From Candidatus Poseidoniales archaeon (GTDB lineage: Archaea > Thermoplasmatota > Poseidoniia > Poseidoniales > Poseidoniaceae), in contig JAYOBT010000003.1 in the NCBI GenBank assembly GCA_038105035.1, positions 4,379-68,378 on the forward strand: 64,000 nt of DNA, in the 5' to 3' direction. Positions 6,764-46,530 of this stretch are shown in pieces (position 1 is the first letter of the stretch; every line of letters starts with the position of its first letter). The translations under genes and the position numbers were made by a program. The notes beneath the pieces are model-generated. The model made no database searches, was not told where the DNA came from, and saw only the letters and a list, made by a program, of their open reading frames with translations.

Positions 6764-6930
6764 GAAGTAATGCAAACATCGGCGCTTCATCAAGACTCGT
6801 GTTCTCAACCGATGGTTTTGATACGGTTGACGTCGCTCCGCCGTTTATGTCCTCAACTGAGAACAATACACTAGGAGCCCGCCGTGATGAACAACAACCA
6901 CGTTTTCTATCACGTGAAAACATCGTCAAG

Positions 6931-26558: not shown

Positions 26559-26650
26559 ACTAGGGGCTCTCGCTCACAGTATAAGTGCTCATGCATTTTA
26601 CCTGAGTAGCGAATCGACGGATTGATGTGCTGTCCAGTCGAGCGCGGGGC

Positions 26651-34397: not shown

Positions 34398-34481
34398 GAT
34401 TCAACCCAAGCGCATTCAATCCTTCAACCCAACGATGGAATCAATACCAATCCTAATGGTTGAGATAGGTCTCCAGCGAAC

Positions 34482-35462
34482 ATGGTCAAGGCGAGTGCTC
34501 CCGGGAAGTGCATACTTTTCGGAGAACATGCGGTTGTCTACGGCCAACCAGCGTTAGCCTGCAGCATCAGTCAACGTATGATTATCGAACTCGAAGTGGA
34601 GGAGACATTCGACAAGTGGCGATTGGATGGGCGAACTTTCAACCCCAAGAAACACCCACACATCGATTTCCTTCGAAAGCAATTGCCACCGATCGAAGAT
34701 CAACCAGTTCACATTCGAATACGTGGTTCGATACCCAAAGCCTCCGGTCTTGGTTCCTCTGCTGCATTGTCAGTCGCTTTGTGTGGCGCACTGCAGCAAA
34801 TGCGTGGGGAAGAGGTTGACCCTTTGCAAGCGAGCGAACTGTCACACCGTGCTGAAGCTAGCGCACAAGGTGGACGGGCCAGCCCAATGGACACTGCAAC
34901 CAGTTCTTTTGGAGGATTTGTTGTCCTTTCAGATACTGTTGAAGACGGCCTCGAGTACATCGGTGTGCGAACCATGAACGTTGATGGAACAACGCTGCAA
35001 TGGCACCTGCATACTTTCAATGCCGTCATTCCAGACGACGTTGCTCTTGTCATAGGGAACACAGGCGTTCACGGTTCAACCTCGGCGATGGTAAAGCAGG
35101 TAGCTAGTTTGATCGGGAATAATCCAGGGCGGAGGGTTGAACTCGAAACCATCGGCGCCATTGCCAGAAGAGGTATTCAGGCCTTACGAGACGGTAACAT
35201 GCAAGCGGTTGGTCAAGCCATGACAGAGAATCACATGGTCTTACGTTCACTCGGCGTTTCTTCACCTGAACTCGAACGTTTGATTCGAGCAGCTGCACCT
35301 TCTAGCCTCGGCGTCAAACTCACAGGTGCAGGTGGAGGCGGTTGCATGATTGCTCTGACAACGAATCCTGAAGAAACAGTTGGTGCCATCGAAATGGAAG
35401 GCGGTCGAGCGTTTATCACGCGCTTTAATGAGCCAGGACTTGAAATTGAGCATTTAAGTTAG
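34482..35462 (+). CDS. mvk: Mevalonate kinase (GHMP kinase).
   Basis: N-terminal SAPGKCILFGEHAVVYG. GHMP motif IPKASGLGSSAALSVA. ATG at 34482. Confidence 0.88.
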   Translation: MVKASAPGKCILFGEHAVVYGQPALACSISQRMIIELEVEETFDKWRLDGRTFNPKKHPHIDFLRKQLPPIEDQPVHIRIRGSIPKASGLGSSAALSVALCGALQQMRGEEVDPLQASELSHRAEASAQGGRASPMDTATSSFGGFVVLSDTVEDGLEYIGVRTMNVDGTTLQWHLHTFNAVIPDDVALVIGNTGVHGSTSAMVKQVASLIGNNPGRRVELETIGAIARRGIQALRDGNMQAVGQAMTENHMVLRSLGVSSPELERLIRAAAPSSLGVKLTGAGGGGCMIALTTNPEETVGAIEMEGGRAFITRFNEPGLEIEHLS

Positions 35463-35506
35463 AAACCGATACTCATAGGTTTCCCCATCAGATGGCGGGC
35501 TCTTCC

Positions 35507-35514
35507 TTTATATA
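35507..35514 (+). promoter_or_regulatory. Archaeal TATA box (TTTATATA) driving a leaderless tbp transcript.
   Basis: The exact TTTATATA consensus at 35507-35514 ends 22 nt upstream of ATG 35537. This predicts a TSS at or 1-2 nt before the ATG. Confidence 0.6.
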
Positions 35515-35536
35515 TGCGGGGAGAAAGCCGCAACTC

Positions 35537-36151
35537 ATGACCACCGATGAAGAGCGCTTGACTGTTGTCAACGTCGTAGCAAGTACCCGCGTAGCCGAAG
35601 AACTCGATCTCCCTGACATCGCAATCCAACTCAATTGCGAGTACGAACCGGAACAATTCCCTGGTGTCGTTTACCGTGTCACGGACCCAAAACTCGCCAT
35701 TCTTATGTTCCGCTCAGGACGTGCAGTTTGCACTGGCGGAAAAGACGAGGACAATATTCACACAGGTATCGACCGAATGATCAAGGATTTGCGAGCTGCA
35801 GGAATCACAACATGGGACCTCAAAGATGTTGAAATCGAAGTCCAAAACATGGTTGCGACCTACGCACTTCACTACCCTGAAGACTACGATGGGAACGACA
35901 AGTTCACTGGTGCTCCACTTGCAGGAGAGCCACGTAAGTTGAACCTGAACAACCTCACCTTCCACTTGCCTTTCGACAAGGTCGAGTATGAGCCAGAACA
36001 ATTCCCTGGTCTTATCTATCGACTCGATTATCCTAAGGTTGTCTGTTTGATTTTCGGCAGCGGTAAAATGGTCATTACCGGTGCACGACACAAGGACGAA
36101 ATCTTGGAAGCAGTTGAAATCATCAAGGACGAACTTGCTGATCTCCTCTGA
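35537..36151 (+). CDS. tbp: TATA-box-binding protein.
   Basis: Two direct TBP repeats, each containing EYEPEQFPG (also a repeated 15-nt stretch gaacaattccctggt at the DNA level). Acidic C-terminal tail. The track start at 35492 would place the TATA box inside the CDS, so ATG 35537 was chosen. Confidence 0.93.
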   Translation: MTTDEERLTVVNVVASTRVAEELDLPDIAIQLNCEYEPEQFPGVVYRVTDPKLAILMFRSGRAVCTGGKDEDNIHTGIDRMIKDLRAAGITTWDLKDVEIEVQNMVATYALHYPEDYDGNDKFTGAPLAGEPRKLNLNNLTFHLPFDKVEYEPEQFPGLIYRLDYPKVVCLIFGSGKMVITGARHKDEILEAVEIIKDELADLL

Positions 36152-36196
36152 GGCCATCGTCGCACCTTTCATGTGCAAGAAGGTACAAGCGATAGC

Positions 36197-39100
36197 ATGG
36201 GCGGAGTGCTCAAGCCACGTGTCTTGACCTTGCTTGTACTTGGGCTGATGATTGGATTCAGTCAAATCCCATTGGTTGAACATCATATCGAACTTCCAGA
36301 TGATCAAGAAATCCAACGGAGTGGTTCAGATCCAGGTGTAACCGACCTACCCTCTTGGAGAGTTGGCGACAAGTGGATTTATTCTGGAACGTTTGACCCA
36401 TCCATTCTCATCACTGACACAGGCGTATCCGCAAACGTGGGTGAAATCCGTGGAGATGCAACTGCAGAAGTCATCGATATTCTGGAACTTCAATTCGATA
36501 ACGGAACCGAATGGGTCTACAAACTGCGGATGTCTGCTGATTTTGACAAAAGCGGTGTCGAACTTGAAGGGTTTACTGGGAACGCAGAGATTGAATTCAC
36601 ACAAACCGAATATTTGCGAGTGAGCGACTTTGCGACTGTGAAGAACGACCTTGATTTGTACATCAAATTCATTCCGTACGGTATCGGGTCACTGACACAA
36701 ATCCTCGGTGACATCACCATTACCAACGAATACAGCCCTGCTACAGAAGCCTACGATTTCCCACTTCGGTATGGTGAACGATGGACTTCATTGACGACTG
36801 CTTCATCGCAATGGTCTGGACAAAGCGATTACATAACGCCGTTTCCCCCTCCAGAAACAGATACCAACACAACGACATGGGAAGTTACGGATGTTGGACA
36901 ACCTCGGAACGCAATTGGAGCTGGAATCGCTTACAGTGGATGCGATGCATCCTATGAACTGACATCATGGAACTCCGACGGCGTCTCGACAGGTTACCGT
37001 TGGTATTGCCCGGCTGTCAACAATTACGCATGGCGACATGCAGAAGAGGACGTTGGTCTGACCATCGATTTCCGATTGAAACAATACATGCCAGTTGGAG
37101 CAACGGGGGTTGAAAGCAACAGCGACCCAGGTACTCGAGCAACATGTGTTGATGTCGCTCCTGAACGTTCCCTGACAGCGCTTGATTCCCCTCTCGAAGT
37201 ATGGGTCCATCTTAGCCCATCTTGCTATGGAACAATCGACGGAGTTGGTGTTGAGATAGCATACGATGGCACCTCAACCACCGTTAACACGGCTTCAAAC
37301 GGTTCTGCCAGCACGACCATTGACTCGGGCAGCAGCATTGACTATTCAGCAACGAATACGGATTGGTCCAGTCATGGCATCATGGCAAAATCTGGAAGTT
37401 ACGTCGGTGCAGCCACCATCACGCTCGACGAGTATCTTGTTGGGCTGGACTTGATTGCGGATGAGGAGAGAGCCGTCATTATCCGAAATAGGAGTGGCGT
37501 GGTCAGTACTGTGAGTTCCCTTTCGGGTTACAATGTACTCCCGGGTGATGATTTGACCATCGAGGTCGCTGTTGTCAACAAAGGCATCACGACTTCGGCA
37601 GCGACTGATTTACGCATCTATCATCCAGATGGTTCCATCTTTGATCTTGGACTACCACCGCTCTCTACATACGAATCGCATAAGGTGAATTTCACTTGGA
37701 CGGTTCCCGCCGATGCAGCGATTGGAACTTTACCGATTCGTTGGGAATCAGACCCACTACAAGTCAATTCAGCAGATGCGGACGCCGACAACGATCTTGG
37801 AGAAATTGAGTTGTTCATTGGACGCTTACCAACAGCAGTACTCGAACCCATCGAGATCTACACGAACGTCGAGACGATGATCAACGCCTCTGGTAGTTTC
37901 GATGAAGATGGTGGAAATGTTTCCTGCCTGTTCAACGTTCCTTGGTATGACGGTACTCGTACCGCTGCATGGACGAGGGTTGAATCAATCGACTGTATGC
38001 TGAACTGGACATGGACGAACGATGGAGAATACCCCATCGAGGTCACCATAACCGATGAAGAACAAGACCAAGTTGAAGCCATCCTTGATGTTGTTATCTT
38101 GAATCGAGCTCCGAACATCGAAGTCATAAGTGCCCGCAACGAGGTGAAGGTCGAATACCCCGTGACATTGTATGCTTATGCAAACGACACAGACTCCGAG
38201 GACCCATTCCCCGGAATTGTGGATGTGTATTGGCCAAATGCAATCTGTGAAGAGGGGTACTACACCCGTGTTTGCACAACAACCGCTCCAACCGAAGGAT
38301 GGCACACCTTCCAAGCCGTAGGTGTCGACGATGACAGTGCCATGACCATGGCAAGCATCGACATCCGATTTACCAACATCAACCCTCACGGGCTATCCGT
38401 CACCATGACCAATGCGAGTGGGCCTCTGCCTCTCGATGTTCAGCAAACCTGGCATGTTCAAGAAGATCAGGTCGTCAACCTTCGTGGACAAGCGCTCGAT
38501 TCTATCGATGATTTGGATGGCCTGACTCACCGCTGGTGGCCTGATGATGCACAGCCAAATCTCATCAAGACGTTCGATGGACGTGTCTCGGAATTTGAAA
38601 TGATGTGGGAAACATCTGGGCTGCACCGAATGCGACTCGAAGTCAGCGACTCGGAAGGAGCCAGCAGTGGTACGTACGAGCGATGGGTGAGCGTTGCAAA
38701 CGTTCCACCGGTCGTTCAACCATTGCAGGAAGTGCTCCCACTTGCGGAAGGGGAAGAAGTTCGCTTGGTCGGTAATGCAACCGATACAGCCTCCGATTAC
38801 GATACCTTGATTCGATGCTGGGACGTAGATCCTGGTCTCGATTCCAATGACATTGGAGGTGCTGATGATGACTGTGATGTGGTTGGTGATGAGCTGATTT
38901 GGCACTGGAATACGAGCGGAACACACACTGTCATCTATCACGTAACCGATGATGATGGAGTTCGTGTCAGTGAGATTCTCTCTATCGATGTCCTCAACAT
39001 TCCACCCATCGTTCGGACAAAGGACATCGTTTGCAACGCACTCGAATCCTGTCTCCTCGATGCTACTGGAACGATTGACTCGATGAATGACCTCGACCAA

Positions 39101-39697
39101 ATCACAGTTGTTTGGGATCTTGACACATCCATTGACAGCAATGGGGATGGGGTAAAAGACAACGATGCCGACAAAATTGGAAAACAAATAGAGCATGTGT
39201 TTACCCGTCAAGGGTCCTACACAATCCGAGTACTTGCTTGGGATGAGAATCCAGAACGACCCGGAACTCGGGTTATCAATGTTGAAATTGGTGCACCCGA
39301 ACGCACCATCGTTGAGGATTTAGGCGCTGCACTCATTGGAGAAGAGGCAAATCCTGTCGCACAACTCTCCTTGCTCACGTTCATGCTTCTCACGTTGGCT
39401 ATGATGACCAGACGTAGGCGCTCAGGCCGGCAACAACGAGCGATGGAGCGACTCGACCAGCAGCAAAATGCAATTTTCAGCGATGAAGAAGTCGGTCTGA
39501 TGCCACATGAAATTTCTGCCCGTCGCAATCGCCCACAAGATCCTCCTGTTGAGCGGGCGTTTGATTCTGTTGATAGGAATCCTGCATCATTGAATGGACC
39601 TCCAATCCCGGAATCCGGATTGCCTGACGGATGGACAATGGAACAATGGGGATACTATGGTCAACAATGGTTGGACTCACAACTTGACAATGGCTAA
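36197..39697 (+). CDS. Giant type-I surface protein A (about 1166 aa): signal peptide, conserved about 280-aa N-terminal domain, PKD-like repeats, C-terminal TM helix and conserved cytoplasmic tail.
   Basis: MGGVLKPRVLTLLVLGLMIGFSQ signal at ATG 36197 (track start at 36173 is GTG). PSWRVGDKWIY and GCDASYELTSWNSDGVSTGYRWYCPAV are shared with the downstream paralogue. PKD-like modules (ASGSFDEDGG...W.W.DG). C-terminus LLTFMLLTLAMMTRRRRSGRQQR ... GPPIPESGLPDGWTMEQWGYYGQQWLD. Confidence 0.85.
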   Translation: MGGVLKPRVLTLLVLGLMIGFSQIPLVEHHIELPDDQEIQRSGSDPGVTDLPSWRVGDKWIYSGTFDPSILITDTGVSANVGEIRGDATAEVIDILELQFDNGTEWVYKLRMSADFDKSGVELEGFTGNAEIEFTQTEYLRVSDFATVKNDLDLYIKFIPYGIGSLTQILGDITITNEYSPATEAYDFPLRYGERWTSLTTASSQWSGQSDYITPFPPPETDTNTTTWEVTDVGQPRNAIGAGIAYSGCDASYELTSWNSDGVSTGYRWYCPAVNNYAWRHAEEDVGLTIDFRLKQYMPVGATGVESNSDPGTRATCVDVAPERSLTALDSPLEVWVHLSPSCYGTIDGVGVEIAYDGTSTTVNTASNGSASTTIDSGSSIDYSATNTDWSSHGIMAKSGSYVGAATITLDEYLVGLDLIADEERAVIIRNRSGVVSTVSSLSGYNVLPGDDLTIEVAVVNKGITTSAATDLRIYHPDGSIFDLGLPPLSTYESHKVNFTWTVPADAAIGTLPIRWESDPLQVNSADADADNDLGEIELFIGRLPTAVLEPIEIYTNVETMINASGSFDEDGGNVSCLFNVPWYDGTRTAAWTRVESIDCMLNWTWTNDGEYPIEVTITDEEQDQVEAILDVVILNRAPNIEVISARNEVKVEYPVTLYAYANDTDSEDPFPGIVDVYWPNAICEEGYYTRVCTTTAPTEGWHTFQAVGVDDDSAMTMASIDIRFTNINPHGLSVTMTNASGPLPLDVQQTWHVQEDQVVNLRGQALDSIDDLDGLTHRWWPDDAQPNLIKTFDGRVSEFEMMWETSGLHRMRLEVSDSEGASSGTYERWVSVANVPPVVQPLQEVLPLAEGEEVRLVGNATDTASDYDTLIRCWDVDPGLDSNDIGGADDDCDVVGDELIWHWNTSGTHTVIYHVTDDDGVRVSEILSIDVLNIPPIVRTKDIVCNALESCLLDATGTIDSMNDLDQITVVWDLDTSIDSNGDGVKDNDADKIGKQIEHVFTRQGSYTIRVLAWDENPERPGTRVINVEIGAPERTIVEDLGAALIGEEANPVAQLSLLTFMLLTLAMMTRRRRSGRQQRAMERLDQQQNAIFSDEEVGLMPHEISARRNRPQDPPVERAFDSVDRNPASLNGPPIPESGLPDGWTMEQWGYYGQQWLDSQLDNG

Positions 39698-39721
39698 GTA
39701 CAAGGAAGCAGACATTCTGGC

Positions 39722-42700
39722 ATGGCGAACCGCATTCTTGCACTGCTTGTTTTGTTTCTCATGGCAGGTTCATCTGCCGTGCACGTTGTCAGCAACAACA
39801 CAACGGAACTCGACGAACTGCCAACCATTGAGCAATCCTCGGGTACGACAAGCTCCACAGATGTGCCAAGTTGGCGTATAGGTGACAAATGGACCTATGA
39901 GACACAATTTGATGTTTCTCAGCTGCTTGCACAAGCCAACGTATCTGCAAGCCTCAACACATTAACCGGAGATACTGTTTACGAGATTGATGACATCTTC
40001 TTCATCAATGTTGACGGAATCCAAACCCTTGCCTACAAGATGCTCATTGAAGGAGAATTCTCATCAGGAAACAATGGCGCTACGCTTGAAGGCGTGAGTG
40101 GAAGACTCGACATTGATTACTCTGGAGAGGACATCGTTCGAGTTCGAGATCTCGCAGTCATCAATTCGGAATTTGAATTGGACGTCGACTTTGCACCATT
40201 CAATCTTGGCTTCTTATCTCAGAAATTAGCCACAATATCATTTGACACCTACTACGATCCACCCAAAGAAAAATACGATTTCCCAATGAGAACGGGTGAC
40301 CAATGGTACATGCCCTTCATGTCGGGGACCAGTGTAAGCGGCTCATCGGATTACTTTGACCCAACGTCGTTTGATACACAAGGGGCTGAAAACACATCTT
40401 GGCAGGTCACCAAAGATGGTATTCCGACCGAAGACGGACAGAATATCAAATACGAAGGCTGTGATGATTCCTACAAGATCAACGAATGGAACGCTACTGG
40501 TGTAAGTGCTGGATTCAATTGGTATTGTCCAGCTGTTCGATTCAACTCTTGGATTCGAATCTCAAACGCTGCTGGATTCACGATTGATTGGCTGTTGAAA
40601 GATTACGAGCCTGTTGATTCGTTCGGCGTTGACAAGAGGAAGAACCCCGGTGGCAGAAACGTCGATATCGAGGTTGAAACACAATTCATCGCAACATTAC
40701 CAGATTCAATGTCAAAAATTTACGCAACATACTCGGTCGCTCCCAATGGCATTCCCGAGGTCAACAAAAACCTCCAATTGCGTTACGAAATGGCGGGAAC
40801 GCTGATCAATCCAACCACCAACGGTAGCGGACAGATTGAAGAAACAATCAACGTTTCAAATGTCGTTGATGACACGATTGCTAGCGACGATTTTAGCAGC
40901 AATGGCGTGATTGTCTGGGATCCAGTCCAGGAAATTATTGGCGTTGCTACAGTCGTCATCGACTTGTCTGTTGTGGGCATCGATTTGGTTGCTCAGGAAG
41001 ATTCCATCATCGTCACACGAACACGCAACGGAGAAGTTGCTACACTCTCCAAATCAATCGGCTACAACGCATTGCCTGGTGACGAACTTTCGTTCTCCTT
41101 GCCAGCCCAAAACAGAGGTGTTTTGCCGTCCCCTTCAACTGAAATGGAAATCGTCGTACCAGATGGTGATTCAAGCCGACAGGCTGTTCCATCCATCGAT
41201 GCATACAGTGAGCAACGAATTGTCATCGACTGGATTGTACCCGAGGAAACCACCATCGGCAATCAAACACTGACGTTCACCGTCGACCCAGATGAACTGA
41301 TCACAGGAGATGCCAATCGAAGCAACAACCAAGCAACAGTTGACGTCTTTATCGGTCGTGCCCCGAATGCCTCCATCTCCATAGATACTGGAAATTACAC
41401 ATTCGAGAACGTCTTGATTGACGCCCGGTCCTCTTTCGATCCTGACGGTGGGGACGTAGAGTGCCGATTTGAAATCGAGTCTCGACCAGGTCTTGTCGAT
41501 GTTATCACAACACCAGACTGTGCCATGAATTGGAACTGGTCCGACGATGGTGACTGGGAGATACGGACTGTTGTCACAGACGATGAGCTTGATACAACTG
41601 TATTGATCAGCAATGTCACCATCTTAAACAGAGCACCGTACATCAACCTCAGTCACCCGGCAGAAGTTGCTGTCGAATCCTCGATTACCATTGATGCAAG
41701 TGAAAGTGGAGACCTCGATACAATATCTCCATCGGGCCAGCAGGTCAGTGTATCTTGGCCTGATTTGAATTGTATCGAAGGGTTAACCCAACCGACGTGT
41801 ACATTCACGCCACTTGAAGAGGGTACGATGCCGATCCGTGCCATTGCAACCGATGACGATGGTGAGGAAACCGAAGTGCTCTCATCGATTGAAGTTCTCA
41901 ATGTCGCCCCGACCATTGGAGAAATAGGCGTGTGGATTTCAGGCGTAAACACGCCCTTCGATGCAAACGGAACGTGGATACTACAAGAAGATCAAACGGT
42001 TATCTTGCGCGCTCAAGGCGATGATACGCTCAACGACCGTGACGGACTTATCATCGATTGGAACCTCAGCGATGTTCTCGATAATCTCACCGTTTCAACC
42101 GATGGATCAGCCTCAGATGTTGCAACTTCATGGCCGACGTCAGGTGAACATATCATCTCAGTTCGAGCTGTCGATGATGATGGAGCAACTTCTTCGACAT
42201 CCCTGGCAAAAGTCACGATTGTCAACGTACCTCCAACCATGACCGCTGAAGCAAATTTCCTCAATGCTGTCAACAATGGCATCACAGTATCTGAAGACGA
42301 CAAAGTGGTCTTCGACGTCGCTGTCGATGACACCGCTTCCGACAAGGATTCATTGGAAGTTTGCTGGGATATTGATGGAACACGAGATGCAGATCTTGAT
42401 GGAACCCTAAACAACGATTGCGATGTGAGTGGTACTCATTTTGAATACACATGGGAAACCAGCAATCCTCAGTTCCAAACCGTGACGGCATGGGTGAAAG
42501 ATGACGATGGGGCCATGGCTTCAATCTCTGCTGTGGTGAAGGTTCAGAACGTGTTGCCAAGCGCTGAAATTTCGTTTGCGAATGGTTCGCTCGACAATTT
42601 GGTCAAGGGCGATACGCTCAATCTCACGTCTGATGGGACCTTTGACTCAGACTCGGACATTTTGAATATGCTCTACGTCTGGAAATTTGAATGGAGAGGC

Positions 42701-43306
42701 GAAAGCGACTTGGGAGAAACAGGCCCTGTTGTATCCATTGCAAATTTGCCAGTAGGTACATGGGACGTCAACCTCACTGTTACAGATGATGATCTAGCGT
42801 CTTCTACCACGACCATTACCATCGTTGTTTCAGAACCACCTCCTGAAGGATTCCTTGAGGAATTCAGCGATACACTGGGCGTGTCTCAGACCATGTCGAT
42901 TGTCATCATAGGCCTCGTTGTTTTGGTGATCGTGTTGGCATCGTTCCTCTTGGTCACTCGTCGTTCACCTCCGGATTTGGTCGAAACACCGTCAAACAAA
43001 GCATGGGATACAACTCCGTTACCGAGTTACGAACCCTCGGAAATGCCTGCATATGGACAGCCTGCACAACAAGCCCCTGCACAACCTGAACCCATCGCTG
43101 AGCAGCCTGTCACGAATCAAGGGCCACCACTTCCAGCCACTGGTCTACCGGCTGGTTGGACCATGGAACAATGGGCGTATTATGGTGAGCAGTACCTTGC
43201 TGCAAACCAAGCACCTGCACCCACCTATCAACCGACACCTTCAATGACTACACCATCGCCTCAGAATACGAATCTGTCCGACCTACTGGATGATTTGGAC
43301 CTGTGA
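39722..43306 (+). CDS. Giant type-I surface protein B (1194 aa), a tandem paralogue of protein A.
   Basis: MANRILALLVLFLMAGSSAVHV signal. PSWRIGDKWTY and GCDDSYKINEWNATGVSAGFNWYCPAV. PKD-like modules (ARSSFDPDGGDVECRF...W.W.DG). C-terminus IVIIGLVVLVIVLASFLLVTRRSPPD ... GPPLPATGLPAGWTMEQWAYYGEQYLA. Starts 24 nt after the protein A stop. Confidence 0.85.
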   Translation: MANRILALLVLFLMAGSSAVHVVSNNTTELDELPTIEQSSGTTSSTDVPSWRIGDKWTYETQFDVSQLLAQANVSASLNTLTGDTVYEIDDIFFINVDGIQTLAYKMLIEGEFSSGNNGATLEGVSGRLDIDYSGEDIVRVRDLAVINSEFELDVDFAPFNLGFLSQKLATISFDTYYDPPKEKYDFPMRTGDQWYMPFMSGTSVSGSSDYFDPTSFDTQGAENTSWQVTKDGIPTEDGQNIKYEGCDDSYKINEWNATGVSAGFNWYCPAVRFNSWIRISNAAGFTIDWLLKDYEPVDSFGVDKRKNPGGRNVDIEVETQFIATLPDSMSKIYATYSVAPNGIPEVNKNLQLRYEMAGTLINPTTNGSGQIEETINVSNVVDDTIASDDFSSNGVIVWDPVQEIIGVATVVIDLSVVGIDLVAQEDSIIVTRTRNGEVATLSKSIGYNALPGDELSFSLPAQNRGVLPSPSTEMEIVVPDGDSSRQAVPSIDAYSEQRIVIDWIVPEETTIGNQTLTFTVDPDELITGDANRSNNQATVDVFIGRAPNASISIDTGNYTFENVLIDARSSFDPDGGDVECRFEIESRPGLVDVITTPDCAMNWNWSDDGDWEIRTVVTDDELDTTVLISNVTILNRAPYINLSHPAEVAVESSITIDASESGDLDTISPSGQQVSVSWPDLNCIEGLTQPTCTFTPLEEGTMPIRAIATDDDGEETEVLSSIEVLNVAPTIGEIGVWISGVNTPFDANGTWILQEDQTVILRAQGDDTLNDRDGLIIDWNLSDVLDNLTVSTDGSASDVATSWPTSGEHIISVRAVDDDGATSSTSLAKVTIVNVPPTMTAEANFLNAVNNGITVSEDDKVVFDVAVDDTASDKDSLEVCWDIDGTRDADLDGTLNNDCDVSGTHFEYTWETSNPQFQTVTAWVKDDDGAMASISAVVKVQNVLPSAEISFANGSLDNLVKGDTLNLTSDGTFDSDSDILNMLYVWKFEWRGESDLGETGPVVSIANLPVGTWDVNLTVTDDDLASSTTTITIVVSEPPPEGFLEEFSDTLGVSQTMSIVIIGLVVLVIVLASFLLVTRRSPPDLVETPSNKAWDTTPLPSYEPSEMPAYGQPAQQAPAQPEPIAEQPVTNQGPPLPATGLPAGWTMEQWAYYGEQYLAANQAPAPTYQPTPSMTTPSPQNTNLSDLLDDLDL

Positions 43307-43311
43307 TAGCA

Positions 43312-43863
43312 ATGGGAAATCTTTGGCAGTTCTTTGGACTCCCCGACCCTGATGCAGGCGGCGTAGCTCGAGTTACCGAGGCACCAGCCACTGCGCAGAG
43401 AAGTCAATTGTCCAGTGAACCTGTTGAAGCAGTAACACAAGTTGTTGAAGAGACGCTAGAACCTCCAACTGACAGGCCCACGACGTTTGAGTGGAATGGA
43501 CCAGTGACTCCTGACGGACAGCCATTTCATGATCTGTCTCAACATAATGGACGGATTCTGATTCGACCGACACGCGCACTACGTTATGTTAAACCAGATG
43601 AAAAACATCGCATCCACACAAGAGACATCGCTCAACGAGTGTTGCAGGGAGATACGGTGATTGTTGATCTAAGGACGTTGGTCCACATGGAATCCCATCA
43701 ACAGGCCTGTCGACGAGAATTACGAGTTATGTGTGAACAAGTTGGTGTTGGCGTGTTTGCCTTGGATTCGGAGGATAAGTTGCTTATGATTCCAGGGGCT
43801 GATGTCGTTGTTGACATCGAAAAGCACGAACTTGGACTCACACGATTGCTTAACGTATCCTGA
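43312..43863 (+). CDS. sepF: Cell division protein SepF (FtsZ-anchoring), archaeal type.
   Basis: The C-terminal domain aligns with the SepF pattern: ILIRPTRALRYVKPDE..DTVIVDLRTL....ACRRELRVMCEQVGVGVFALDSEDKLLMIPGADVVV (compare bacterial VVVNL...AKRIVDFLSGTVYAI.GDIQRIG.DIFLCTP). ATG at 43312 is 6 nt after the upstream stop. The track start at 43303 is GTG. Confidence 0.72.
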   Translation: MGNLWQFFGLPDPDAGGVARVTEAPATAQRSQLSSEPVEAVTQVVEETLEPPTDRPTTFEWNGPVTPDGQPFHDLSQHNGRILIRPTRALRYVKPDEKHRIHTRDIAQRVLQGDTVIVDLRTLVHMESHQQACRRELRVMCEQVGVGVFALDSEDKLLMIPGADVVVDIEKHELGLTRLLNVS

Positions 43864-43872
43864 GGTGAAAAA

Positions 43873-45159
43873 ATGGATAGGCGTCAGCAATTCACAGGTT
43901 CTTATCTCGAACTCTTTACCTCATCGATGTTGTTTTTCATTGCCTTGACATTCTTACTGGCTTGGCTAACGTTTTTTTCGCCATATGAATTGTTTGAAGA
44001 TGAAGAACGTCTTGCTATGATGAACTATGTTCTCATCACAATGTTTGCTCTGGGCCCTGTCATGGCCATTCTAGCAGGAATTGCGTTTGATACATTGCCG
44101 CTTGTGTACAGTGTCCCGTCCTTTGAACGTACAACAATGCGACATTTTCTCCAACTCAATGCACTTGGGCAATTGTTCATTCATGCTGGGATTTACATTG
44201 GTAACTGGAATTTGTTCATTGAATTCTCAGGAATCGGAATCACACTGATGTGCCTTGCATTGCTAACGCTAACTCCCTCATCGATTGACATTGTGAAACA
44301 GAAGAGCAACTCGGGCGAGGTGGGAATCTTTTCTTACTCACCCGGTCTTGTTCTTGTCTTCTGCTCTTTGTGTATTGCAGCCACATGGTTTATGCGCGAT
44401 GTTCCCGGCATGATCGAGGTAGGGGTCGCCTTCATCGTCGGGATTTTCTGCATGATGATGATGTCAACAGTCATGCTTTCGCATTTCAATCGAAGATTGG
44501 GTTGGAATGTAACAAACCCGAAAACCCTTCCAATTCGTTTCTTCATCCTGATTTTCCTAGGCATTGGCTACGTTGCAGCGAGCTTCCTCCGGGCGAGAGG
44601 AGCAATCTCAGAGGATTTGATTGACATCGGTTTTTCAGTGCTTCTTCTGAATGTGTTTTTGATGATGAATCCATTGAAGATCTTACGATACTCGATTGGT
44701 AAATTTGCGAAACCGCATTCTCGATTTGTATTCGTAGGATATCTGCTCCTACCCCTTCTCTCGCTCGTTTCAATCGCACCTATTTGGACGGGTCACGAAG
44801 GCATGGCGAACATTCAACCAGCACACTGGTTGTTGATTGCCTATTCTTGTTTCTTCGTGGTGTGTGGATTTGCTATCTATCTCCATGAGGACCATTTGCA
44901 TTATTCCCCTTCAACCAGGATTACACACTGGCACCTCGTCTTGATGTTCCTCGCCTGTGGTGTACTTATGACATGGTCGCTGTATGACGGGGCCGTTTTG
45001 CTTGATGGAGAATATTTGCCAGTTTATGTTTGGATTGGAACACAAAGTCTTGCATCGTTCTTGCTTGCCATCCTTTTTATTCGTCATACTGTTTTCCCAT
45101 CGGACAACTGGCATCGCATGCCTATGTTCTACGATCGACTCATGGAAAGTAAGGATTGA
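43873..45159 (+). CDS. Hypothetical polytopic membrane protein (about 12 TM helices).
   Basis: Twelve hydrophobic segments throughout, e.g. MLFFIALTFLLAWLTFF, VLITMFALGPVMAILAGIAF, GIGITLMCLALLTL, LVLVFCSLCIAATWF, LLLNVFLMMNPL, FVFVGYLLLPLLSLVSIAPIW. No recognised family. It lies 9 nt after sepF. Confidence 0.5.
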   Translation: MDRRQQFTGSYLELFTSSMLFFIALTFLLAWLTFFSPYELFEDEERLAMMNYVLITMFALGPVMAILAGIAFDTLPLVYSVPSFERTTMRHFLQLNALGQLFIHAGIYIGNWNLFIEFSGIGITLMCLALLTLTPSSIDIVKQKSNSGEVGIFSYSPGLVLVFCSLCIAATWFMRDVPGMIEVGVAFIVGIFCMMMMSTVMLSHFNRRLGWNVTNPKTLPIRFFILIFLGIGYVAASFLRARGAISEDLIDIGFSVLLLNVFLMMNPLKILRYSIGKFAKPHSRFVFVGYLLLPLLSLVSIAPIWTGHEGMANIQPAHWLLIAYSCFFVVCGFAIYLHEDHLHYSPSTRITHWHLVLMFLACGVLMTWSLYDGAVLLDGEYLPVYVWIGTQSLASFLLAILFIRHTVFPSDNWHRMPMFYDRLMESKD

Positions 45160-45713
45160 ACATCGTTAAGGAAATCGAGCGATGACTGGGTAAATCCCAA
45201 CACAGCCGGCTCCGTTCCTTCAATCAAATGAGCGTACTTTCCCATCATACCAGCCAAGTCATAGCCTCCTGCTTTACCAACCCATGAGTTTGATTCGATA
45301 AGTTCGATAAGAGCATCATCAGAAAAGTCTTCGATTTCAACAACAGCATGTTCGATGCTTGAGTGCCAATTGCCCATTGCATGCACCATCGTTGCGGACC
45401 ATACGCGGTGACGGCGCCCTCGCAAACGCAGAAGCATAGCAACTGCTTGTTCTTTCGAAGATGGTTTTCCCATTGCAGCTTGTTCATCATCGGGATCCTC
45501 GACAAGCGTATCCGATACGATTACGACATCGTATTCCTCATCGAATGAGACTGCATTTGCTTTACGTAGGGCCACTTCTTTCACCTGGCCAGAGAGAATT
45601 TGCCGAGGGACGGATTCATCCACACCTTCAATCGCAACTTGTTCGACGTTTGCAAAGCGCTCTCGAAGAATGGCCCCACGTCGCTCAGATGCAGAAGCAA
45701 GGAGGATGCGCAT
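45129..45713 (-). CDS. maf: Maf-family nucleoside triphosphate pyrophosphatase (septum formation protein Maf).
   Basis: MRILLASASERRGAILRE. DVVIVSDTLV. GKPSSKEQAVAMLLRLRGRRHRVWSATMV. Typical Maf motifs (S-x-R-R, GKP, L-S-G-x-x-H). ATG at 45713; the track start at 45722 is GTG. Confidence 0.8.
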   Translation of the reverse strand: MRILLASASERRGAILRERFANVEQVAIEGVDESVPRQILSGQVKEVALRKANAVSFDEEYDVVIVSDTLVEDPDDEQAAMGKPSSKEQAVAMLLRLRGRRHRVWSATMVHAMGNWHSSIEHAVVEIEDFSDDALIELIESNSWVGKAGGYDLAGMMGKYAHLIEGTEPAVLGFTQSSLDFLNDVQSLLSMSRS

Positions 45714-45810
45714 AACCAACACACGTCACATCAACCACATCACATTTTGCAAACAAATTGGGGGTGAATTTCAAGTGTTGAATCGTGTTCCTCCAATATG
45801 AGGCGGAACT

Positions 45811-46530
45811 ATGGACATCATGGAACGAATTCCCACACACGTTGAAGGACTCGATGAGAACATGCAAGGTGGCATTCCAAAGGGACATATCTGCATCGTC
45901 GCAGGTGCATCCGGTGCAATGAAGTCGAGTGTTACGTTCTCAATGCTTTACAACGCAGTCTTGTACGGGGAAACGAGTGGAATTTACGTCACGCTTGAAC
46001 AAGGAAAAGATTCCTTGCGGGCACACATGTCCAACATGGGTATGAACGTTGACGACGCTCGTGTGCGCAACCGTATTGCAATTATTGATTTATCAGACCT
46101 TCGCGTTCAACTCGACGAACAAGGGATGAGCAATCGTGTTGATTGGATGGGTCAGCTGATTAAGCAACTCACAAACTACAGAAAATCCATTGGCTTCGAA
46201 CTCCTTGTTTTCGACTCGCTTGGTGCGTTCTTCACACTCACCAAAATGGAGAATCCTCGTGATGAGATCTTCAGACTTTTCGAAGCAGTACGTCGTCTCG
46301 AACTTACTTCCTTCTTCATTTGTGAAATGACCGGTGAAAATCACAGGCAATTTGGTGAGTATGGCGTAGAAGATTATCTCTCTGACGGCGTTATTCACCT
46401 TGTTATGGATCGCAAAGAGGACGATGTACAACGAAAACTCGGCATCATTAAGATGCGTCACACTCGGCATGCACTGGGTTACAAGCCTTTCAATTGGAAA
46501 CAAGAAGAACAGCGATTTACTGTTCTTTGA
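45811..46530 (+). CDS. Single-domain KaiC/RecA-superfamily ATPase (archaeal KaiC-like).
   Basis: THVEGLDENMQGGIPKGHICIVAGASGAMKSS is the KaiC-like N-terminal loop plus Walker A. Walker B LLVFDSL. About 240 aa, typical of archaeal KaiC-like regulators. Confidence 0.72.
   Translation: MDIMERIPTHVEGLDENMQGGIPKGHICIVAGASGAMKSSVTFSMLYNAVLYGETSGIYVTLEQGKDSLRAHMSNMGMNVDDARVRNRIAIIDLSDLRVQLDEQGMSNRVDWMGQLIKQLTNYRKSIGFELLVFDSLGAFFTLTKMENPRDEIFRLFEAVRRLELTSFFICEMTGENHRQFGEYGVEDYLSDGVIHLVMDRKEDDVQRKLGIIKMRHTRHALGYKPFNWKQEEQRFTVL

What the first reader, a model, noticed from the sequence alone, without database searches (positions are those of the whole stretch)
36197..45159. Two tandem giant paralogous surface proteins packed in an apparent operon with sepF and a 12-TM protein
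Proteins A and B are clear paralogues. They share a ~280-aa N-terminal domain (PSWR[VI]GDKW[IT]Y ... YDFP[LM]R.G[ED][RQ]W ... GCD[AD]SY.[IL].[SE]WN..GVS.G..WYCPAV), PKD-like repeats, and the tail motif, which is similar even at the nucleotide level (ggaccatggaacaatggg vs ggacaatggaacaatggg). Intergenic gaps in the co-directional string A-B-sepF-12TM are 24, 5 and 9 nt. TBP lies 45 nt upstream. A cell-division gene translationally abutting a 1194-aa adhesin-like gene is an unusual arrangement. It hints that this SepF copy, or the unknown 12-TM protein, functionally partners the surface proteins, possibly through their cytoplasmic tails, rather than being a generic division gene.
Basis: partly seen in the sequence, partly recalled or inferred. 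Interest (0 to 1): 0.65.

Follow-up and report, generated by a model that had tools for sequence, protein, structure and literature searches.

The report
Giant surface proteins coupled to SepF
In marine Group II archaea (Poseidoniales), the gene for a very divergent SepF cell-division protein always sits a few bases after the gene for a giant membrane-anchored surface protein, and that protein's intracellular tail ends in a peptide resembling the one SepF normally grips on FtsZ, which hints at a physical link between cell envelope and division machinery.

Summary
A (36197-39697) and B (39722-43306) are collinear paralogues, 32% identical over about 1,178 residues. Each has a signal peptide, a beta-barrel-like N-domain, CARDB/PKD Ig-like repeats, one C-terminal TM helix and a cytoplasmic tail. 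Gaps of 45, 24, 5 and 9 nt are as stated.

The 183-aa "sepF" fails Pfam SepF, but its predicted core has the SepF fold: the 19 best PDB matches are all SepF. It also has the SepF layout of hydrophobic N-terminus, linker and core.

The organism is a Poseidoniaceae (MGIIa) archaeon. Giant gene followed by SepF-like, 2-18 nt apart, holds in 78/78 Poseidoniaceae species loci and in six deeper lineages, including MGIIb. Those lineages carry one giant gene, so the duplication is MGIIa-specific and old. The 12-TM gene is accessory (52/73 loci, none in MGIIb).

B's tail ends in an invariant LLDDLD[L/F]-COOH, kept despite synonymous codon change. Related acidic/hydrophobic ends occur in the other lineages. 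This resembles the FtsZ C-terminal peptide (LDDFI / DLDV) that SepF binds.

Best reading, inferred only: the SepF-like protein docks on this tail. I could not settle whether it is the only SepF in these genomes.

The parts
35507..35514 (+). TATA box TTTATATA, 23 nt upstream of ATG 35537. It is the only canonical TATA-like hexamer found between 34300 and 45200, and is the likely promoter of a leaderless TBP mRNA and possibly of the whole string.
   Evidence: The same TTTATATA lies at the same distance upstream of TBP in L002, L004, L006 and L090.
35537..36151 (+). TATA-binding protein gene. The long ORF starts at 35492, but the real start is probably 35537, giving 204 aa as in relatives.
   Evidence: Pfam TBP E 2.7e-51. 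Relatives are 204 aa. The TATA box lies inside the long ORF.
36197..39697 (+). Giant surface protein A (1,166 aa). It has a signal peptide, an N-terminal beta-barrel-like domain (about nt 36344-37096), a CARDB domain (about 37514-37720), PKD-like repeats (Pfam PKD about 39020-39253), a TM helix (about 39353-39409) and a cytoplasmic tail.
39617..39673 (+). Tail motif 1 in A: GLPDGWTMEQWGYYGQQWL. The protein stops 7 residues later and has no acidic C-terminal peptide.
39722..43306 (+). Giant surface protein B (1,194 aa), a collinear paralogue of A. It has an N-terminal beta-barrel-like domain (about 39857-40621), CARDB (about 41063-41338), PKD (about 42599-42829), a TM helix (about 42899-42955) and a cytoplasmic tail.
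43142..43198 (+). Tail motif 1 in B: GLPAGWTMEQWAYYGEQYL.
   Evidence: It is conserved in 80 loci despite many synonymous codons.
43283..43303 (+). C-terminal peptide LLDDLDL-COOH of B. This is the proposed ligand of the SepF-like protein and resembles the FtsZ C-terminal peptide.
   Evidence: It is conserved as [LVFAI][LW]DD[LF]D[LF]* (one E at -2) in about 80 Poseidoniaceae loci, with Leu encoded by up to 6 codons and Asp by both codons. Related ends occur in L088, L090, L094, L095 and L096. The FtsZ-CTD comparison comes from PMC8178401.
43312..43863 (+). Divergent SepF homologue (183 aa). It has an invariant hydrophobic N-terminus MGNLWQFFGLPDP (43312-43350), a variable linker and a SepF-fold core (about 43573-43821).
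43873..45159 (+). Orphan multi-pass membrane protein (428 aa, at least 10 TM helices). It is restricted to Poseidoniaceae, present in 52/73 loci, and best treated as an accessory member of the string.
45129..45722 (-). Maf-like nucleotide pyrophosphatase, convergent with the 12-TM gene and overlapping it by 31 nt. It marks the 3' end of the co-directional string.
   Evidence: The neighbourhood is conserved only in MGIIa.

Best explanation
This is an order-wide Poseidoniales gene module. A roughly 1,200-aa type-I membrane surface protein is followed within 2-18 nt by a highly divergent SepF homologue. MGIIa carries two copies of the surface protein (A and B); other lineages carry one.

Shown by the evidence. 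The giants have a signal peptide, a beta-barrel-like head, Ig-like CARDB/PKD repeats, one C-terminal TM helix and a cytoplasmic tail. The small protein has the SepF architecture and fold. The pair is always adjacent, even where everything else around it has rearranged. The tail carries short motifs under protein-level selection.

Inferred. B and the SepF-like gene are co-transcribed and translationally coupled. The SepF-like protein sits on the inner face of the membrane through its hydrophobic N-terminus. Its core uses the alpha2/beta3 groove, which canonical SepF uses for the acidic-hydrophobic FtsZ C-terminal peptide, to bind the acidic-hydrophobic C-terminal peptide of the giant protein (LLDDLD[L/F]-COOH in MGIIa). 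This would tie a major envelope protein, possibly the unknown S-layer or cell-coat protein of these archaea, to the FtsZ/SepF division apparatus. It could position SepF, or direct envelope insertion to the division site.
For: Paralogy and architecture.

SepF fold. The AF2 core has pLDDT 81-90 and a beta-alpha-beta-alpha-beta-beta-beta order. The 19 best Foldseek PDB matches are all SepF from Archaeoglobus, Pyrococcus, Bacillus, Corynebacterium and Methanobrevibacter, with probability 0.87-1.0 and target TM-score 0.57-0.75. The family profile's best PDB sequence hit is the A. fulgidus SepF-like protein across the whole domain (E 0.45). hhalign against three canonical SepF cores gives probability 72% and E 3.4e-5. 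PF04472 is the most frequent sub-threshold Pfam family among members. IMG labels some members 'SepF-like (DUF552)'. The invariant N-terminus M-x-N-L-W-x-F-F-G-L-P-D-P, variable linker and core match the SepF layout described in PMC8178401.

Synteny. B-type giant directly upstream in 78/78 loci, A in 49/50, TBP in 49/49. A single giant followed by SepF-like, with gaps of 2-18 nt, occurs in L090, L092, L093, L094, L095 and L096. In L094, TBP has been separated from the giant by two opposite-strand genes, yet the giant and SepF-like pair stays intact.

Tail motifs. These were examined. Synonymous variation shows the selection acts on the peptide, not the DNA. Among 242 ORFs of 12 diverse loci, only the giants, TBP and one SepF-like protein end in such an acidic/hydrophobic heptad.

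Literature. SepF binds FtsZ 'LDDFI' (archaea) or 'DLDV' (bacteria) in the alpha2/beta3 groove through Asp-Arg/Lys ion pairs (PMC8178401). The family has a nearly invariant Arg135 on alpha2. Both archaeal SepF papers postulate an unidentified factor that positions SepF.

Transcription. There is no run of five or more T between 34400 and 43932, and there are SD-like GTGA/GAGG elements in the 4-11-nt gaps.
Against: The peptide resemblance is short and acidic, and TBP's own C-terminus (DELADLL) is similar. MGIIb tails end differently (…EDIEALFDD, …EALMEEDSS) and lack motif 1, so the motif is not uniform across the order. The upstream block of HdrD-like, GHMP kinase and TBP genes is also conserved, so part of the synteny may be simple inertia. 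Sequence-level SepF membership is below every curated threshold. The FtsZ C-termini of Poseidoniales were not available for comparison. The amphipathic moment of the N-terminus is not significant. The S-layer identity rests only on architecture; there is no homology to known S-layer proteins.
Confidence: 0.4

Rival explanations
1. The SepF-like protein is simply the ordinary, fast-evolving FtsZ membrane anchor of Poseidoniales. It is co-expressed with a major envelope protein because envelope growth and division are co-regulated, and there is no direct contact between SepF and the giant's tail. The tail motifs would serve something else, such as sorting, oligomerisation or another partner.
For: The protein has the SepF fold and architecture. 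Poseidoniales have FtsZ1/2, and the published survey found no other SepF in the reference MG-II chromosome, which does carry this gene at L078. Canonical SepFs are themselves barely detectable from one another: 3zie against 3zig gives E 0.19, and a 3-SepF profile misses M. smithii SepF at E<=1. Divergence alone therefore does not imply a new function. Unrelated genes (GHMP kinase, TBP) share the conserved block.
Against: This reading does not explain why the pair survives where the TBP linkage is broken (L094) and where everything downstream differs. It does not explain why the giant's extreme C-terminus is a conserved acidic/hydrophobic peptide of the FtsZ-CTD type. In other archaea, sepF has a 'variable genomic context' (PMC8178401).
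Confidence: 0.33
2. The SepF-like protein is a neofunctionalised paralogue dedicated to the giant surface proteins, for example as a membrane-proximal adaptor or chaperone for their tails, and it no longer anchors FtsZ. A canonical SepF elsewhere in the genome does the division job.
For: Pende et al. list a SepF on contig DAPT01000083.1 of MAG UBA124, whereas this family lies on DAPT01000101.1 of the same MAG. The family is very narrow, with only 87 clusters at E<=1e-3 among 1.84 billion representatives. It also has extra conserved elements, such as PFHDLG before the core, that are absent from canonical SepF.
Against: No second SepF was reported in the near-complete MG-II chromosome. The UBA124 hit could be a mis-binned contig; bins mislabelled as bacteria do carry this locus. 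MGIIb members of this same family give weak PF04472 hits and are labelled SepF-like by IMG, so the survey hits may belong to this family.
Confidence: 0.17
3. There is no functional link. A and B are particle-adhesion or substrate-binding proteins typical of MGII heterotrophs, and the adjacency to SepF is inherited gene order without meaning.
For: MGII genomes carry several giant secreted proteins, including a 1,615-aa S8 peptidase and a 1,696-aa orphan in this window. PKD and CARDB are generic adhesion-type domains. The flanking synteny is broadly conserved.
Against: The 2-18-nt spacing on one strand is kept across SepF-like identities down to about 30%. The giants are single-copy or two-copy core genes in every lineage. 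Only these giants carry the conserved cytoplasmic tail motifs.
Confidence: 0.1

Closest known systems
Archaeal SepF (FtsZ membrane anchor; M. smithii 7AL1/7AL2, H. volcanii HVO_0392; Pfam PF04472 / COG1799)
   Same: The three-part layout is the same: a short hydrophobic N-terminal membrane-binding segment, a disordered linker and an alpha/beta core of about 90 aa. The predicted core superposes on all solved SepFs. It has basic residues on alpha2, where SepF contacts the acidic FtsZ peptide.
   Different: It is below every curated sequence threshold. It has a conserved PFHDLG segment before the core. It was missed by the published archaeal SepF survey in the reference MG-II genome. Its gene is fixed immediately downstream of a giant surface-protein gene, whereas archaeal sepF otherwise has a variable context.
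FtsZ C-terminal peptide (CTD), the SepF ligand
   Same: The end of B, LLDDLD[L/F]-COOH, shares the L-D-D-hydrophobic core with M. smithii FtsZ NEDQLDDFIDGIF and the D-L-D-hydrophobic core with C. glutamicum FtsZ. Like the FtsZ CTD, it sits at the very C-terminus after a long disordered, Pro/Gln-rich spacer.
   Different: It belongs to a transmembrane surface protein, not a tubulin homologue. It lacks the archaeal 'GID' motif. MGIIb versions are only loosely similar. No binding has been shown.
MapZ/LocZ of streptococci (a bitopic division-site marker that binds FtsZ) and, more loosely, integrin-type envelope-cytoskeleton linkers
   Same: The concept is the same: a single-pass membrane protein with a large extracellular part and a cytoplasmic tail that contacts the division cytoskeleton. 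Pende et al. explicitly note that archaeal SepF would need such a partner.
   Different: There is no sequence or fold relationship. The contact here would be through SepF rather than FtsZ, and it is entirely inferred.
Archaeal S-layer glycoproteins built of Ig-like domains with a C-terminal membrane anchor (for example H. volcanii SLG; comparison from my own knowledge)
   Same: Shared features are a signal peptide, serial Ig-like domains, an acidic pI (4.05-4.14), N-glycosylation sequons above expectation (12 against 8, and 21 against 12), a C-terminal TM anchor and core-gene status. Two paralogues recall two-component S-layers.
   Different: There is no detectable homology to any known S-layer protein. 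A long cytoplasmic tail with conserved motifs is not typical of S-layer proteins. Abundance and lattice formation are unknown.

Membership tests
SepF (Pfam PF04472 / COG1799) | Sequence match to the curated family model above its gathering score | tested here: not met
   The window protein has no PF04472 hit even at E<=10. NCBIfam gives nothing relevant. Three of 30 family members give sub-threshold hits, best E 0.0096 against a cut-off of 27 bits.
SepF (Pfam PF04472 / COG1799) | SepF core fold: two helices packed on a five-stranded sheet, in beta-alpha-beta-alpha-beta-beta-beta order | tested here: met
   In the AF2 model the core has pLDDT 81-90. Foldseek PDB ranks 1-19 are all SepF, with probability 0.87-1.0 and target TM-score 0.57-0.75. 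hhalign against canonical cores gives probability 72% and E 3.4e-5.
SepF (Pfam PF04472 / COG1799) | N-terminal membrane-targeting helix, flexible linker and C-terminal core | tested here: inconclusive
   The invariant hydrophobic N-terminus MxNLWxFFGLPDP and the variable, low-pLDDT linker are present. The hydrophobic moment is not distinguishable from shuffles for the MGIIa version (muH 0.27, 24% of shuffles at least as high). MGIIb versions are more amphipathic.
SepF (Pfam PF04472 / COG1799) | Binds the FtsZ C-terminal domain and co-occurs with FtsZ | not testable with these tools
   Poseidoniales genomes have FtsZ1/2 according to PMC8178401 Supplementary Data 1. No FtsZ gene lies in the window, and binding cannot be computed here.
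PKD / CARDB Ig-like domain proteins | Pfam match above the gathering score | tested here: met
   For A: PKD_4 49.6 bits (cut-off 27), PKD 34 (23.5) and CARDB 24.6 (22.7). For B: PKD 32.6 (23.5) and CARDB 29 (22.7).
Archaeal S-layer protein | Homology to a known S-layer protein family, or evidence of being the dominant lattice-forming envelope protein | tested here: not met
   There is no Pfam or NCBIfam S-layer family hit. The N-domain's best structural neighbours are DUF1849, YmcC and LolA-like half-barrels at TM 0.36-0.44. Abundance and lattice formation are not testable here.
Archaeal S-layer protein | Secreted, C-terminally membrane-anchored, acidic, glycosylation-prone multi-Ig architecture | tested here: met
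   There are an N-terminal signal-like segment and a single C-terminal TM helix. The pI is 4.05-4.14, and sequons are 12 against 8 expected and 21 against 12 expected. Ig-like domains are present.
Operon (single transcription unit TBP/A/B/SepF-like/12-TM) | Same strand, short gaps, no internal terminator or promoter, conserved order | tested here: inconclusive
   Gaps are 45, 24, 5 and 9 nt. There is no run of five or more T from 34400 to 43932, and only one canonical TATA box, upstream of TBP. The order is conserved. However, a conserved AAGTA about 25 nt upstream of B could be a weak internal promoter, and no transcript data are available.
TATA-binding protein | Two TBP repeats matching PF00352 | tested here: met
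   E 2.7e-51, with two matched stretches.

The most novel reading that the evidence does not exclude
Poseidoniales couple their cell envelope to the division machinery through a direct transmembrane link. The cytoplasmic C-terminal peptide of a giant, possibly S-layer-forming, surface protein mimics the FtsZ C-terminal peptide and is bound by a dedicated, divergent SepF. This would be the first identified membrane-spanning partner of archaeal SepF. It could mark the division site from outside the cell, or target new envelope subunits to mid-cell. Both archaeal SepF studies say that such a positioning factor is missing.
Probability: 0.3. Interest if true: 0.8.

Novelty: new variant of a known kind. 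Interest (0 to 1): 0.6.

Why it matters
MGII/Poseidoniales are among the most abundant archaea in the surface ocean, and they are uncultured. Their envelope proteins and divisome are essentially uncharacterised.

First, this work identifies the SepF homologue that a published survey did not find in the reference MG-II genome. This shows that SepF can drift below the detection limits of HMMs.

Second, it identifies a core, order-wide giant surface protein as a candidate cell-coat component.

Third, the invariant gene pairing and the FtsZ-CTD-like tail peptide give a concrete hypothesis that can be tested in vitro with a peptide and a small domain. The hypothesis addresses an open question in archaeal cell biology: what positions SepF, and how envelope growth is tied to the Z-ring.

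Tried and rejected
SepF-like protein, sequence searches:
- Pfam and NCBIfam on the SepF-like protein at E<=10 gave nothing usable.
- A single-sequence PDB search and a search with the close-homologue profile gave no SepF. Only the broadened profile put SepF first, and not significantly.
- An exhaustive HMMER search of 1.84 billion representatives with the family profile stayed inside the family (87 clusters) and did not bridge to canonical SepF.

12-TM protein:
- Pfam, NCBIfam, a PDB sequence search, a PDB profile search and a homologue search all gave no annotation. It is a Poseidoniaceae-only orphan.

N-terminal domain of the giants:
- The fold search gave only generic half-barrel neighbours (DUF1849, YmcC, LolA, autotransporter barrels) at low TM-score, so no function can be assigned.

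- The search for related loci with the broad alignment failed for lack of a conserved stretch.

Ideas tested and dropped:
- Motif 1 (GWTxEQW) does not co-vary with the WxGPxTPDG segment of SepF-like. L090 has motif 1 but its SepF-like lacks that segment.
- The tail motif is not a general MGII surface-protein tag. Only A and B carry it in 64 kb.
- Conservation of LLDDLDL does not reflect a DNA element such as a promoter or RBS for SepF-like. Extensive synonymous codon variation rules this out.

Literature:
- Searches for SepF or S-layer in MGII/Poseidoniales found nothing specific.


Full report
**1. What is in the sequence**

The region holds five co-directional genes on the + strand (translations):
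- TBP, 35492/35537-36151.
- Protein A, 36197-39697 (1,166 aa from the ATG; an in-frame GTG lies at 36173).
- Protein B, 39722-43306 (1,194 aa).
- A 183-aa protein, 43312-43863.
- A 428-aa multi-pass membrane protein, 43873-45159.

TBP is unambiguous (PF00352, E 2.7e-51).

A and B align end to end at 32% identity, with 50% positives over 1,178 columns and E = 0. Per-segment identity is 19-38% and is highest in the N-terminal domain. The paralogy therefore covers the full length rather than only a ~280-aa head. Both proteins have:
- an N-terminal signal-like segment;
- a single C-terminal TM helix, followed by Arg-rich residues and a tail of about 95-115 aa, which is therefore cytoplasmic;
- an acidic pI (4.05-4.14);
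- N-glycosylation sequons above expectation;
- Pfam CARDB and PKD domains above threshold.

The 18-nt DNA identity in the tail motif is real: 2 matches, and none in 100 shuffles.

**2. Which organism**

Homologues of the 183-aa protein all come from Candidatus Poseidoniales (Marine Group II archaea). The closest are from Poseidoniaceae, that is MGIIa. Members of the same family occur in Ca. Thalassarchaeum betae and other Thalassarchaeaceae, that is MGIIb.

**3. Is the third gene sepF?**

By curated sequence models it is not:
- There is no PF04472 hit even at E<=10, and no NCBIfam hit.
- Profiles of close homologues do not find SepF in the PDB.
- An exhaustive HMMER scan of 1.84 billion representative proteins returns only 87 clusters, all within this narrow family.

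By structure and architecture it is:
- An AlphaFold2 model built on 24 homologues has a confident core (pLDDT 81-90) with beta-alpha-beta-alpha-beta-beta-beta order.
- The 19 best Foldseek matches in the PDB are all SepF proteins, from A. fulgidus, P. furiosus, B. subtilis, C. glutamicum and M. smithii. Probabilities are 0.87-1.0 and target TM-scores 0.57-0.75.
- A broadened family profile puts the A. fulgidus SepF-like protein first among 177,635 PDB sequences, aligned over the whole domain, though at E 0.45.
- hhalign against three canonical cores gives 72% probability and E 3.4e-5.
- PF04472 is the most frequent sub-threshold Pfam family among members (3/30, best E 0.0096).
- IMG labels some members 'SepF-like (DUF552)'.

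Weak sequence signals are normal for this family. A. fulgidus SepF finds P. furiosus SepF only at E 0.19, and a profile of three SepFs misses M. smithii SepF at E<=1.

The layout also matches SepF as described for M. smithii in PMC8178401. There is an invariant hydrophobic N-terminus (M-x-N-L-W-x-F-F-G-L-P-D-P), a variable disordered linker and a conserved core. The amphipathic moment of the N-terminal peptide is not statistically special in MGIIa, so membrane binding is plausible but not shown.

I therefore treat this protein as a very divergent SepF homologue. It passes the fold and architecture tests and fails the curated-HMM test.

**4. Is it the only SepF?**

This is unresolved. Supplementary Data 1 of Pende et al. 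(PMC8178401) lists FtsZ but no SepF ('NA') for the reference MG-II chromosome, taxid 274854. That chromosome, CM001443.1, does carry this gene (L078). Their HMM therefore did not see the MGIIa form.

For MAG UBA124 they list a SepF on contig DAPT01000083.1, whereas this family lies on DAPT01000101.1 of the same MAG (L023). That hit could be a genuine second SepF. It could also be a mis-binned contig. Mis-binning does occur for this locus: two copies sit in bins labelled Rhodobiaceae and Salipiger.

**5.

Across 80 species-representative genomes of Poseidoniaceae:
- A B-type giant ends directly upstream of SepF-like in 78/78 loci with enough flank.
- An A-type giant lies further upstream in 49/50 loci. 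The exception is L072, which has only a B-type gene.
- TBP lies upstream in 49/49 loci.
- The B to SepF-like gap is always 4-11 nt.
- The full string is HdrD-like(-), GHMP kinase, TBP, A, B, SepF-like, [12-TM], Maf(-), KaiC-like, GlmS(-), S8 peptidase(-), rhomboid(-).
- The 12-TM gene is present in only 52/73 loci and is missing from the whole Poseidonia clade.

In six deeper lineages, where SepF-like is 27-42% identical to the window protein, there is one giant gene followed by SepF-like at 2-18 nt:

| Locus | Giant (aa) |
|---|---|
| L090/L091 | 1,242 |
| L092, Thalassarchaeum betae | 1,178 |
| L093, Thalassarchaeaceae | 1,100 |
| L094 | 1,259 |
| L095 | 1,194 |
| L096 | 1,232 |

The downstream genes differ in these lineages. 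In L094, TBP is separated from the giant by two opposite-strand genes, yet the giant and SepF-like pair is intact. A fragmentary locus (L088) and a gene call that starts inside the tail motif (P0158) show the same adjacency.

A distance tree puts all A's, all B's and the single-copy giants in three separate clades. A against B is about 33% identical, and each is 29-37% identical to the singles. The duplication is therefore ancient and specific to MGIIa. The invariant unit is the giant followed by SepF-like.

**6. The tails**

Both A and B carry G-L-P-x-G-W-T-M-E-Q-W-x-[YH]-Y-G-x-Q-[WY]-L about 40-70 residues after the TM helix. In the 64-kb window, no other protein has this motif.

A stops 5-8 residues after the motif. 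B continues through a Pro/Gln-rich spacer and ends in [L/V/F/A/I]-[L/W]-D-D-[L/F]-D-[L/F]-COOH, with a single Glu at the penultimate position, in every Poseidoniaceae locus. The ends in other lineages are:
- …FAALDFDL (L090)
- …GDMDLDL (L088)
- …DAALDL (L094)
- …LLDDLLDDLGV (L095)
- …DLDLDDLF (L096)
- the looser …EDIEALFDD and …EALMEEDSS in MGIIb, which also lack motif 1

Codon tables from 80 loci show up to six Leu codons and both Asp codons at the conserved positions. Selection therefore acts on the peptide and not on an overlapping DNA signal. Among 242 ORFs from 12 diverse loci, only the giants, TBP and one SepF-like protein end in such an acidic/hydrophobic heptad.

According to PMC8178401, SepF binds the FtsZ C-terminal peptide (M. 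smithii NEDQLDDFIDGIF). The 'LDDFI' part, or 'DLDV' in C. glutamicum, lies in a groove between alpha2 and beta3 and is held by Asp-Arg/Lys ion pairs. The end of B shares the L-D-D-hydrophobic core. The SepF-like family has a conserved basic patch (C-R-R-E-L-R, with Arg135 nearly invariant) on the predicted alpha2 helix.

**7. Transcription**

No run of five or more T, the usual archaeal terminator signal, occurs between 34400 and 43932. The only canonical TATA box in 34300-45200 is TTTATATA at 35507-35514, 23 nt upstream of ATG 35537. This implies that TBP starts there (204 aa, as in relatives) and is leaderless. The same box is conserved in four divergent lineages.

The 4-11-nt gaps before SepF-like contain SD-like GTGA/GAGG elements, partly formed by B's last codon plus its stop codon. 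Co-transcription and translational coupling of B and SepF-like are therefore very likely.

Co-transcription of TBP with A, and of A with B, is possible. However, a conserved AAGTA about 25 nt upstream of B could be a weak internal promoter. No transcript data could be consulted.

**8. Other parts**

The N-terminal domain of the giants was modelled with AF2 (pLDDT 80, pTM 0.74). It is an all-beta, half-barrel-like fold. Its best neighbours (DUF1849, YmcC, LolA-like; TM 0.36-0.44) suggest no function. Its homologues are all hypothetical proteins of Poseidoniales and Thermoplasmatota.

The 12-TM protein is a Poseidoniaceae-only orphan with no Pfam, NCBIfam or PDB relative. It has invariant His, Asp and Arg positions.

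**9. Interpretation**

The best-supported account is a conserved envelope-division module. A giant type-I surface protein is co-expressed with a divergent SepF. That SepF most likely docks, from the inner face of the membrane, on the acidic-hydrophobic C-terminal peptide of the giant's tail, using the groove that SepF uses for FtsZ. The giant may be the unknown cell-coat or S-layer protein of these uncultured archaea.

Fold, architecture, synteny and motif selection are shown. Binding, localisation and S-layer identity are inferred.

The main rival is that this is the ordinary FtsZ anchor and is merely co-expressed with an envelope gene. A further rival is a dedicated paralogue, with a canonical SepF elsewhere in the genome.

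Both archaeal SepF papers state that an unidentified factor must position SepF. That is why a membrane-spanning partner would matter.

**10. Verdict**

It is wrong to weight the 12-TM protein and the tandem duplication as core features.

Novelty: a new variant of a known kind, namely a SepF homologue beyond HMM reach, fixed next to a giant surface protein whose tail ends in an FtsZ-CTD-like peptide. Interest 0.6.

Noticed in passing
window 35492-35540: The long TBP ORF is probably mis-started. A perfect TATA box (TTTATATA, 35507-35514) lies inside its first 15 codons, 23 nt upstream of ATG 35537. That start gives the 204-aa length seen in relatives and implies a leaderless TBP mRNA. The box is conserved in four divergent lineages.
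   Followed up: partly
window 45129-45159: The 12-TM gene (+) and the Maf-like gene (-) overlap convergently by 31 nt.
   Followed up: no
window 11649-16742 (-): A 1,696-aa ORF has no Pfam domain at E<=1e-5. It is acidic (pI 4.18) and has 18 N-glycosylation sequons. It is another giant orphan, probably a surface protein, and lacks the A/B tail motifs.
   Followed up: no
window 45811-46530 (+): A single-domain KaiC-like ATPase is 82-100% identical (82% only on one truncated fragment) across all Poseidoniaceae loci, whereas SepF-like is 48-88% and GlmS 59-94% identical. It is the most conserved protein of the neighbourhood apart from TBP.
   Followed up: no
window 6799-9012 (+) and 26627-29170 (+): These are unusual secreted-type proteins. 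One has two DUF7151 domains plus a collagen-like repeat. The other combines a lamin-tail domain with an amidohydrolase.
   Followed up: no
L010 (CALDQY010000003.1) and L021 (CAXQWT010000104.1): Contigs carrying this archaeal gene string, 81-100% identical to the window's proteins, are deposited in MAGs labelled 'uncultured Rhodobiaceae bacterium' and 'Salipiger bermudensis'. They are evidently mis-binned Poseidoniaceae contigs.
   Followed up: no
L094:4367-10489: On a 3.0-Mb contig of a deep-branching relative, TBP is separated from the giant gene by two minus-strand genes (a glyoxalase and a LigT-like gene), while the giant and SepF-like pair stays adjacent (18 nt). This natural rearrangement shows which linkage is under constraint.
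   Followed up: yes
L072:5590-10564: One Poseidoniaceae species representative has only a B-type giant between TBP and SepF-like. The A copy is missing.
   Followed up: partly
window 36131-36151, and TBP genes of all loci: TBP itself ends in an acidic/hydrophobic peptide (…DELADLL-COOH), similar in character to the end of B. This cautions that such tails are not unique to SepF ligands.
   Followed up: no
L090:6155-6262: A perfect GC-rich hairpin (GCGCGCCC-ATA-GGGCGCG) lies between the DUF2784 gene and the giant gene in this lineage. It may be a terminator or a regulatory stem-loop, which would suggest the giant gene has its own promoter there.
   Followed up: no
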